Shown here piece after piece: positions 11,370 to 59,469 of a stretch of DNA of 64,000 nucleotides. Position 1 is the stretch's first letter. Every line of letters begins with the position of its first letter. The stretch comes from the human T2T-CHM13v2.0 reference genome, Homo sapiens. The position numbers were made by a program, and so were the translations under genes. The notes beneath the pieces are model-generated. The model was not told the DNA's origin, ran no database searches, and worked only from the letters and a program-made list of their open reading frames with translations. Location of the stretch: NCBI RefSeq assembly GCF_009914755.1, contig NC_060926.1, one strand, 5' to 3'.

Positions 11370-12135
11370 GCTTCTAGCTGCTGCCTCCAGCGTCTTCTTC
11401 TCTAAATCATCTCTTTCACAGATGTCAGACTAATCTTCCCACAGCACCCACTCTGTCATATTGCTTCTTTACCTGAAATCTCCCTTTGCTCGTAGGATGT
11501 GGTCCTGCTTCCTTGGCCTGGTATTTAAGGTTCTTCCGGATCGGGCTGCAAACCACCTCTCTGGCCTGATTCACCTCGTAGCCCCATCCTCAGCTTGTGT
11601 TCTGCCCCACTTAGGCAGTGCCTTCACTTGGTTTCAGGGGCCATCTCCTGTCCTTCCTGTCTGACAGAATCCTACCACGTTTAGGGTCACCTCCTCCCCA
11701 AAGATGACTCTACTGCCCTAGACCTCCCTGTGGTTTCTGGAACATACCTTATGCTACTCCGATCAACTATTTGTCATATAGCAACCACTTCAGGATTTAA
11801 GTTTTTTGAAGGGTGAAAACCCACCCCCTCTGTTTCTATACTCACATCTTACATGTAGAGGCTCAATAAATACCTTTTCACTCAAAATAATTCTTCTCTG
11901 GCAACCTCAAGCCAAGAGCTCTGGAAGTGTCCTTGGAATTTGATGGGTTTCAAAATACATACTTGACAATATGCTTGCAGTGATTTGAAAAGCTGGCAAT
12001 GTTCAAGTTTGCTTTAACTGCTGTGACTGTTATTAACAGATAGGCAAGGATCCTATTTGCCTTGTCTAACACTGTGTTCCCAACACATAGCATGGTAGCT
12101 GGCACTCATAGGCACTGAACAAATACTTGTTGAAA
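11370..12135 (+). mobile_element. L2 3' fragments
   Basis: L2-like body (ccttggcctggtatttaagg...) and two L2-type tails: 'gtagaggctcaataaata' (~11855) and 'ggcactcataggcactgaacaaatacttgttgaa' (~12100). Confidence 0.6.
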
Positions 12136-12677
12136 CTGACATAAGAAGGTACTTCTGAACCACTAATAGTTGGATCCAGTATGCCTGATTCCTTATCTTG
12201 CCCCAAGACTTGGCTTGCAGCTTGGAAAGAGCTCTTCTCTATCCTGGTGGGAGGAATTGAGAAGCCAAACCCCTAAGACCCCTAAGAGAAGCCACCCAAG
12301 GCCTCTCCCCAACTGTACTTGTCCAGAGGTCGGGGTCCAGGCCTAGCAAAAAAATGTCACCAAGACCTCAAGTGCCCTCCCATGCTTTTGCGCTCCCATC
12401 TCCATTGTTTTGAAGGGTCACATGCACATGCTGTAGCGACAGGGGAGGCTGGGAAGTCACACAGCTGGTGTGCTCAGCCCTGGTGGGAAGTGAAGAGCAG
12501 GGAAGGAAGGGTATTTGGGCAGGCAACAAACAGCATATGCCATCATTTTGTTTGAGGACAGGGAATAGGAGCTTGGAGAGACTGAGTGGTCTGCTCAATG
12601 TCCTACAGTAGGTCAGTGGCAGAGCTGAGCTCTGTCTGACTCTAAAACCCTGCTACTTCCTTTCTATTACCTTCATG

Positions 12678-12714
12678 GTGCAGGACAAAGGGGTGACTGC
12701 AGAGCATATACGGG
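12678..12714 (+). repeat. Left copy of 37-bp direct repeat flanking the NUMT
   Basis: gtgcaggacaaaggggtgactgcagagcatatacggg; identical to 12961-12998 apart from one extra C in the right copy. Confidence 0.95.
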
Positions 12715-12960
12715 TCTACATTTAACATTCCAGCCTAACATAACTACCCTAAGGTGTTAATTAATCCATGCTTGAAGGACATAGTAACTAATCAATAGAC
12801 AAACACAATCATTTCCCTTCAGAAGCTTCCTATGGTAAAAATCCACAACCCCTCTCTTCCCCCACCTCTGACCTTATTATTAACCTAGAATAATAATAAC
12901 CCTTGACAAACCCCAAAAACAAGAGGCTAAAATTCAACCCAGCCAGAGCCCAAATAATCA
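12715..12960 (+). other. NUMT: diverged nuclear copy of mitochondrial control region (CSB1-CSB2-CSB3; roughly human m.165-400)
   Basis: gtgttaattaatccatgcttgaaggacata (12754-12783) matches mt gtgttaattaattaatgcttgtaggacata (CSB1). acaacccctctcttccccc (12845-12863) is CSB2-like. tgacaaaccccaaaaaca (12904-12921) matches mt tgccaaaccccaaaaaca (CSB3). Order and spacing are collinear, and the strand is G-poor like the mt L-strand. Confidence 0.9.
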
Positions 12961-12998
12961 GTGCAGGACAAAGGGGTGCACTGCAGAGCATATACGGG
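12961..12998 (+). repeat. Right copy of direct repeat flanking the NUMT
   Basis: gtgcaggacaaaggggtgcactgcagagcatatacggg. Confidence 0.95.
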
Positions 12999-13169
12999 GC
13001 TGGATAGGGCAGTTCAGACGCTAGGAACCTCCATCGTAGGGACCGCTGAGCTTGGCGTTTCAGACACAGGCCCTCTGGATTTGTAACTCCTTTGTCTTGA
13101 AAATGGACTCTATTGGGTAGGGATGAAATAGGATGGAAAGGAGAGACTATCTGCCTTTATCTTTGTAAA

Positions 13170-14270
<1,101 letters not shown>

Positions 14271-57716: not shown

Positions 57717-58124
57717 TTATGTAAAATCCGAGCAAAAATGACCATGTGGTCTGATCTCTCTGCTTCCCACCCAGATGGCAGCATGCTATACACGCTGCTG
57801 TGCTGTGCTTTTCCCCACAGAATCTCTCCCCATCAGCTCCTAGAGGGTGCCTTCATTTGTTTTATGAGCACTGACCACCTGCATTGAGCGTGGCGGTCAG
57901 GCATTGTGTGTGACGGTCGGGCATTGTGCTAAGAGATATACGTGGATTACCTTATTTAATCATCACACAAACCTAAATGCAGAGTGTGCTAGAACCATCC
58001 CCCTTTACAGATGAGAAAACTGAGGGCTGGAGAATTTGCATAGTCCGGGTCACATGCCATCAGATTCCAGAAACAGCGCTGTCATTCTTGCTGCCACGAG
58101 GTTCTGGAAAGGCCAGCCTCTTGA

Positions 58125-58424
58125 TTTTTTTTTCTTTTTTTTGAGATGGAGTCTTGCTCTGTCGCCCAGGCTGGAGTGCAGTGGTGCGATCTTGGCTCAT
58201 TGCAACCTCCGCCTCCTGGATTCAGGCAATTCTCCCTGCCTCCGGCTCCTGAGTAGCTGGGACTACAGGTGCACACCACCATGCCTGGTTAATTTTTGTA
58301 TTTTTAGTAGGGACGGGGTTTCACTATGTTGGCCAGGCTGGTCTCAAACTCCTGACCTCAGGTGATTCGTCCGCCTCAGCCTCCCAGAGTGCTGGGATTA
58401 TAGGTGTGAGCCGCTGCGCCCAGC
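58125..58424 (-). mobile_element. AluSx-like
   Basis: Full antisense dimer; TSD ccagcctcttgattttttt (58113 / 58426). Confidence 0.96.
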
Positions 58425-59469
58425 ACCAGCCTCTTGATTTTTTTTCCAACCCTCACTGGGTGGTTTGAATGCAAATGCTAATTGGGTTCAGCTGAAAGCC
58501 ACAGTTGAACCAGTGACCTTAGATTGTTGATTAACACACCAATTGCACCATTTTACCACTCACAAAAGGAACAGGTCAGAATGCTATCTAAGTGGTTACA
58601 GATATGTGTCATAGTTTCACCAGATTCCCAACGTGTAAAAATGGTTATCCTTATTTCCTGGATGAGTAAAAGGAGGCTCAGCAAATTTAAGCCAGGATTG
58701 CAGCTTGGGTCTTGGGACTGCCTCTTAGTGGCCCCCATGGTTGGCTTCCCTTCTCCTACCTTGGCCCCTGAGATGCGGGAGGGGTTGGCTGCCAGGGCCC
58801 CTCTCGCGGGGGAAGGTAGTGGGGTGGGCCTGGCTCCCCAGATGGCCACAGTGGAGACAGGGCAGGCACTGGGTCAGCCCAGGTGGGTGGGAGAAGGTGC
58901 CATTGAAGGCTGGTAAAAAAGGGGTGAAGTGCTGTCACTTCCTTCCCAACTTGGGCCTCCTGCAACAGAAGGGCGCCGAGCCCTTGTGGCGATCCTGAGG
59001 GCACTACAGCAGCTGCTGAAAGTGATTCTTAACCAGGAGCTGGCCCTCAGGGGCAGCCAGCATCATGGCCTCTCCCTGGTTCCCTGCTTGCCCTAGACAT
59101 GTGTTAAGGGCTCTGGGTGGGCCCTAAGCCCCAGCTGCTGGCTCATCTGGCAGCCACTGTTCTTCTCTTGGCTCAGCTTGACCATCCCATCAAAGGAAAA
59201 GCATGGCATGAATGGGAAGGCTTAGGGCTTGGCAGGAGACTGACCTTGGCTCTCAGAGTGGGGAGCCCTGGAGCCAGGGAAATCTAGCAGGAGGGATGGC
59301 CTCAGGTCCTTCAGGGGTCCTGGATACGGTCAGCACTGGGGGTGCCACTGGTGCCATCCAGCTTAGGGACATATGGATTCCTTCTCTCAGACTCCTCTGC
59401 CTGCCCCCTCTGCTCTCCTTTCCAGCGTTCACAACCCTGCCTCTCCCCGCGGAATGCCTGACTCCACAC

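What the first reader, a model, noticed from the sequence alone, without database searches (positions are those of the whole stretch)
12678..12998. NUMT is bracketed by an unusually long 37-38-bp target-site duplication
Seen: gtgcaggacaaaggggtg(c)actgcagagcatatacggg occurs immediately on both sides of the insert, differing by one 1-bp indel. There is no poly-A tail and no TT|AAAA site. Established: L1-mediated TSDs are usually about 7-20 bp, and NUMTs usually integrate by end joining with little or no duplication. Inference: mtDNA was captured at a widely staggered break or during a template switch. The direct repeats could also allow precise excision, recreating an empty allele. Near-identity of the two copies gives a rough nuclear clock independent of the mt divergence.
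Basis: partly seen in the sequence, partly recalled or inferred. Interest (0 to 1): 0.75.

Follow-up and report, generated by a model that had tools for sequence, protein, structure and literature searches.

The report
Mitochondrial fragment inside long target duplication
An old 246-base piece of mitochondrial control-region DNA sits on human chromosome 2 exactly between two near-identical copies of a unique 37-base sequence, likely the scar of a widely staggered chromosome break patched with mitochondrial DNA: a known repair outcome, but with an unusually long duplication.

Summary
Confirmed. Two copies of a genome-unique 37/38-bp sequence (12678-12714, 12961-12998; no substitution, one 1-bp indel) abut a 246-bp insert (12715-12960). 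The insert is mitochondrial control region (about chrM 166-402), and its mitochondrial homology stops at both repeat edges. It has no poly-A tail and no L1-type A-rich target. It was absent from the four NUMT lists I searched, two of them held cut. Target duplication at NUMTs is known (1-11 nt in 17 of 71 recent events). In my survey of 120 catalogued NUMT loci, 2 had 21-24-bp junction repeats outside satellites and none reached 30 bp, so this is a tail value. Best reading (0.72): two nicks about 37 nt apart, fill-in of both overhangs, end-joining onto a mitochondrial fragment; paired-nick experiments produce such duplications. The donor mtDNA lineage branches before NUMTs dated older than the human-rhesus split. 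The repeat clock is weak: 0 of 37 only bounds divergence at 7.8% or less. Outgroup empty sites and deletion alleles could not be tested. Speculative lead: the insert's ends lie near the light-strand start site (recalled) and a 7S-DNA end. Ordinary mechanism, outlying size.

The parts
12678..12714 (+). Left copy of the duplicated target, 37 bp, unique nuclear sequence
12715..12960 (+). 246-bp NUMT of the mitochondrial control region, same orientation as the mtDNA reference strand, about chrM 166-402
   Evidence: coordinate mapping using catalogue anchors
12757..12783 (+). Conserved block matching CSB1 (label recalled)
   Evidence: conserved across 15 NUMT homologues in the alignment
12847..12864 (+). 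C-rich block at the position of CSB2 (label recalled; human CSB2 is nt 299-315 in PMC4222359)
12904..12924 (+). Conserved block matching CSB3 (label recalled); aligns to the catalogued NUMT starting at chrM 345
12961..12998 (+). Right copy of the duplicated target, 38 bp (one extra C)

Best explanation
A 246-bp piece of mitochondrial control-region DNA lies exactly between two copies of a unique 37-bp nuclear sequence, and it was likely captured in one germ-line repair event in which two nicks about 37 nt apart made a staggered break whose overhangs were both filled in and end-joined to the fragment. Shown: the anatomy, the mitochondrial origin, the exact abutment, the absence of L1 hallmarks and the rarity of this repeat length. 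Inferred: a single event, the staggered break, the fill-in (by analogy with CST/Pol-alpha NHEJ or Pol-theta joining at paired nicks), and an age near or before the human-rhesus split. The locus is most likely a neutral scar with no present function.
For: Repeat edges coincide with NUMT edges at offset 0 on both sides. The repeat is unique in the genome. NUMT target duplications are already explained by fill-in of cohesive breaks (PMC2567098 passages). Paired nicks giving 46-nt overhangs yield tandem duplications (PMC5730883 passages); the Pol-theta route duplicates almost the whole overhang (PMC8355091 passages). Intermediate cases exist: a perfect 21-bp repeat at L102 and a 22/24 repeat at L056. 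All 12 recognisable Alu target duplications in the window (12 of 17 Alus tested) start A-rich, unlike this repeat.
Against: No empty orthologue was seen, so single-event origin is not shown. Zero substitutions, with a CpG kept in both copies, is in mild tension with an old donor: P about 0.09 at the local Alu-TSD mismatch rate of 6.4% (biased low), 0.065 at an assumed 6% and 0.007 at 11%. In the passages I read, the paired-nick papers show duplications, not capture of foreign DNA between the copies. None of 120 surveyed NUMT loci had a non-satellite junction repeat of 30 bp or more.
Confidence: 0.72

Rival explanations
1. Replication template switching: a stalled or broken fork copied a mitochondrial fragment, then re-primed 37 bases behind the exit point, duplicating the target without a staggered break.
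For: It gives the same A-insert-A anatomy. Possible 2-4-nt junction matches exist: the insert ends in TCA, and TCA lies two bases before the left copy; BLAST extends the repeat 3 bases with one mismatch.
Against: Those short matches are within chance and cannot be read without the ancestral sequences. No close nuclear donor copy was found (best full-length identity 72%).
Confidence: 0.12
2. A 37-bp tandem duplication existed first and the NUMT later landed exactly at its junction; or the repeat was copied across, or homogenised around, an older NUMT afterwards.
For: Tandem duplications are the commonest short insertions (PMC8355091 introduction). A later copy or conversion would explain 0 substitutions beside an old mtDNA lineage.
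Against: It needs a second event at exactly the same base (offsets 0 and 0). 37 bp is far below the 200-bp length 'previously thought' necessary for homologous recombination, although the same paper finds no sharp threshold (PMC12350158 passages).
Confidence: 0.1
3. L1 machinery made the break or reverse-transcribed a mitochondrial RNA, with a widely offset second-strand nick.
For: Target duplication is the retrotransposition hallmark. The insert covers a transcribed primer region, and Tsuji et al. report L1-endonuclease-type oligomers enriched near NUMTs.
Against: No poly-A on either strand and no TT|AAAA at either edge. The target is GC-rich, unlike the 12 Alu duplications in the window. 37 bp exceeds the usual 10-20 bp.
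Confidence: 0.06

Closest known systems
NUMTs with target sequence duplication (Hazkani-Covo and Covo 2008, PMC2567098; passages read)
   Same: Mitochondrial filler between two copies of the chromosomal target; attributed to gap-filling of cohesive breaks in end-joining.
   Different: Reported duplications were 1-11 nt in recent human and chimpanzee events; this one is 37 nt and far older.
Small tandem duplications from paired nicks (Schimmel 2017 PMC5730883, 2021 PMC8355091; passages read)
   Same: Duplication of tens of bases from staggered ends, without retrotransposition.
   Different: Here 246 bp of foreign DNA separates the copies; those studies used engineered Cas9 nicks in cultured cells.
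Repair-mediated duplications and 'doublets' (Pace 2009 PMC2671141, passages read; Thomas 2004 known only through Pace's citation)
   Same: Short paired local repeats ascribed to imperfect break repair, sometimes with filler and target duplication (4-21 nt in Pace's table).
   Different: The filler is mitochondrial and the paired copy is the target itself, directly at both junctions.
Interstitial telomeric repeats inserted at staggered breaks (PMC7215372; passages read)
   Same: Passive insert captured at a break, with direct duplication of the target (3 of 66 horse loci as the only change).
   Different: The insert there is telomeric repeat, not mtDNA.
L1/Alu target-primed reverse transcription
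   Same: Insert flanked by a direct target duplication.
   Different: No poly-A, no endonuclease motif, longer and GC-rich duplication.

Membership tests
NUMT | Nuclear sequence homologous and collinear to mtDNA | tested here: met
   67-88% identity to 34 other places; 14 of 16 scanned loci lie beside tRNA, SSU rRNA or control-region structure matches; maps to about chrM 166-402. Compared through other NUMTs, since no mtDNA was held.
NUMT | Independent insertion, not part of a duplicated nuclear segment | tested here: met
   Both flanks unique; best full-length paralogue 72%.
Target-site duplication | Direct repeat of nuclear sequence abutting both ends of the insert | tested here: met
   Offsets 0 and 0; no mitochondrial homology inside the repeat.
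Target-site duplication | Single copy at the empty ancestral site | not testable with these tools
   The genome tool holds no relatives of this genome, and no paralogous empty site was found.
L1-mediated insertion (TPRT) | 3' poly-A tail | tested here: not met
   Neither end has one; the A-rich 3' end aligns to mitochondrial homologues.
L1-mediated insertion (TPRT) | Endonuclease site TT|AAAA at the duplication edge | tested here: not met
   Edges read CATG|GTGC and CGGG|GCTG.
L1-mediated insertion (TPRT) | Duplication of about 10-20 bp | tested here: not met
   37 bp, against 11-19 bp for 12 Alus in the window and 10-20 bp in PMC12350158.
Polymerase-theta / microhomology-mediated joining | Microhomology or templated bases at junctions | tested here: inconclusive
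   Only 2-4-nt candidate matches; ancestral mtDNA and empty site unknown.
Polymorphic NUMT / precise-excision allele | Allele lacking the insert in people | not testable with these tools
   No variant data; the pangenome NUMT table searched has no entry at these coordinates at all.

The most novel reading that the evidence does not exclude
The captured piece is the mitochondrial replication primer segment itself: it runs from about chrM 402, near the light-strand transcription start (nt 407, recalled), to about chrM 166, next to the mapped 7S-DNA 5' end at nt 168. An RNA-primer plus DNA-flap intermediate from a side-branch primate mtDNA lineage would have been copied into a 37-nt staggered break, making this a fossil of a replication by-product used as a repair patch.
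Probability: 0.06. Interest if true: 0.7.

Novelty: new member of a known kind. Interest (0 to 1): 0.3.

Why it matters
If the outgroup test holds, it extends the size of natural staggered breaks recorded by NUMT junctions from 11 nt (the largest in the 2008 set) to 37 nt. That is the range in which engineered paired nicks make tandem duplications, so it links the two. [quoted passage not shown] It is one locus, likely neutral, and the mechanism is known, so the impact is modest.

Tried and rejected
ARAGORN found no tRNA in 12000-13600 and Rfam found only Alu-derived matches in 11500-14200: the insert is non-coding control region. Search for a duplicated empty site: none. Search for a close nuclear donor NUMT: none above 72% full length (only the best 25 candidates were scored). 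Strong hairpin at the target: not seen (-4.6 and -7.4 kcal/mol, no shuffle control). Younger insertion from a side-branch mtDNA: the insert has the most private changes (27 of 176 columns, against 8-22 in 18 other rows), transition-rich 23:4 against 180:82, but Fisher p = 0.08 and its 4 transversions equal the median 4.5, so not established. L1 retrotransposition rejected on three features. In the 120-locus survey, L138 (minisatellite), L108, L151, L156 (microsatellites) and L049, L080, L052 (Alu-like pairs) were set aside as not being target duplications. Thomas 2004 on doublets was not held and was not read. A source for the light-strand start coordinate was not found in two searches or in the passages read. 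Earlier scan findings were not available.

Full report
Observation. The window shows a 37-bp sequence at 12678-12714 and a 38-bp copy at 12961-12998 that differ by one extra C and no substitution. Its first 18 bases occur exactly twice in the whole genome, at these places. Each flank matches only itself and the other copy. With the same geometry at random window positions, 1 of 5000 trials reached the focal alignment score.

The insert. Bases 12715-12960 are AT-rich with strong negative GC skew and match 34 other places in the genome at 67-88%. Of 16 such loci scanned (16 of the 20 fetched), 14 carry a tRNA, small-subunit rRNA or mtDNA control-region structure match nearby. Local alignments cover 12716-12960 and stop at both repeat copies, so the repeat is nuclear and abuts the mitochondrial piece on both sides. 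No mtDNA reference was held, so I mapped the ends through catalogued NUMTs with published chrM coordinates. Three anchors put the left end near chrM 166; one direct anchor puts the right end near chrM 402, and a second without indel correction gives about 399 (anchors). The piece spans the three conserved sequence blocks (labels recalled).

Is it catalogued? Coordinate searches found no entry in the supplements of three T2T NUMT studies: PMC13629686 (both held tables), PMC13179385 (main workbook held cut, but including its NUMT table) and PMC10671835 (archive held cut, format not inspected). The first two use plain T2T coordinates and list neighbouring homologues. The hg18 list of PMC3467031 has nothing on chr2 between 40.9 and 49.3 Mb, where I estimate this locus falls. 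These lists also skip this part of the control region inside several long old NUMTs (compare), so absence likely reflects divergence from modern mtDNA. Unread supplements (two large PDFs, the cut parts) could still mention it.

How unusual is the length? Hazkani-Covo and Covo found target duplication in 17 of 71 recent events, 1-11 nt long (passages). Pace et al. list 4-21 nt at repair-mediated duplications (passages). I fetched 120 catalogued NUMT loci with 400-bp flanks, chosen as isolated or small-cluster entries from three supplement pages (chr1, 2, 10, 11, 20, 21, 22); large multi-piece clusters and evident duplicates were left out. Four had a junction-anchored repeat scoring 14 or more: a minisatellite (L138), a TA run (L108), a perfect 21-mer (L102) and a 22/24 match among local repeats (L056). 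So 2 of 120 had 20-29 bp outside satellites and 0 of 120 had 30 bp or more (95% upper bound 2.5%). Catalogue edges are imprecise and old duplications decay, so these are lower bounds. The focal repeat is the tail of a known distribution. Two paper searches for long NUMT target duplications listed no report of this locus or of such a length; the library lacks most subscription journals.

Mechanism. L1 retrotransposition fails on three features: no poly-A, no TT|AAAA at either edge, and length. All 12 recognisable Alu duplications in the window are 11-19 bp and start A-rich. End-joining at a staggered break fits. Paired nicks giving 46-nt overhangs yield tandem duplications by fill-in (PMC5730883), through CST/Pol-alpha NHEJ or, with larger duplications of nearly the whole overhang, polymerase theta (PMC8355091). 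Ligating a mitochondrial fragment between the filled ends gives this anatomy. That step is inferred; template switching gives the same product and cannot be excluded. Junction microhomology is inconclusive.

Age and the proposed clock. In a tree of 19 control-region segments, the insert lies between a group of 13 NUMTs and a group of 5, both splits strongly supported. In Tsuji's dating, L002 and L011 are age a (before the rhesus split), L004 a/o, L014 and L083 age b, and L007 of the larger group age a (matched by my approximate coordinate conversion). The donor lineage therefore branched before the human-rhesus split, roughly 30 million years or more (date recalled). Zero substitutions in 37 bp bounds the divergence of the copies at 7.8% (12% if the indel counts). 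Local Alu duplications mismatch at 6.4% (11 of 173 bases, 12 of 17 Alus; biased low), giving P = 0.09 for none in 37; at 11% P is 0.007. This is mild tension, eased by selection for a conspicuous pair, by an age near the young end, or by a donor from a side lineage. The last has weak support: longest terminal branch, 27 private changes, transition-rich, p = 0.08. The clock gives only an upper bound.

Speculative lead. The left end falls 2 nt from the 7S-DNA 5' end at nt 168 (ends at 191, 168, 151, 110 in PMC4222359). The right end falls about 5 nt short of the light-strand start at nt 407 (recalled, not found in print here). That interval corresponds to the RNA primer plus DNA flap described in PMC10447254. 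Against it: the match is post hoc; the landmarks are human and the donor is old; the flap is degraded by an exonuclease rather than known to be released whole; and other control-region NUMT ends are scattered (for example 115, 128, 345, 418, 459). I give it 0.06.

Verdict. A real, apparently uncatalogued old NUMT with an exceptionally long target duplication, best explained by fill-in and end-joining at a widely staggered break. New member of a known kind; the decisive outgroup and excision tests remain open. Interest 0.3.

Noticed in passing
L102 (G000:C2:134965521-134966484), around locus 379-601: Catalogued 164-bp NUMT flanked by a perfect 21-bp direct repeat, with about 18 unassigned bases before the right copy; a second long target duplication.
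   Followed up: partly
L056 (G000:C10:37644379-37647356), locus about 390-413 and 2578-2601: 2.2-kb NUMT with a 22/24 direct repeat at its junctions, amid further local copies of the same short motif; possible long target duplication.
   Followed up: partly
L138 (G000:C21:43741658-43742654): 197-bp NUMT sits inside a GC-rich minisatellite; L108, L151 and L156 sit inside TA or TG runs.
   Followed up: no
L003, L005-L008, L013, L015-L020 versus L002, L004, L011, L014, L083: Old control-region NUMTs form two groups; several of the larger group carry variable short tandem arrays between the first two conserved blocks, absent from the smaller group and from the focal insert.
   Followed up: partly
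L002 and L004 (chr7, chr9): Their control-region parts are 94% identical, far above other pairs; marked as duplications in Tsuji's table.
   Followed up: partly
window 58113-58445: Reverse-strand Alu with a perfect 19-20-bp target duplication; ordinary, useful as a local control.
   Followed up: yes
window about 12600-12670: Sequence just left of the repeat resembles the 3' part of a MIR element (recalled, no library to test it).
   Followed up: no
chr1:237357621-237358250 and similar gaps: The NUMT catalogues read here leave the conserved-block part of the control region unannotated inside several long old NUMTs, although it aligns to the focal insert.
   Followed up: partly
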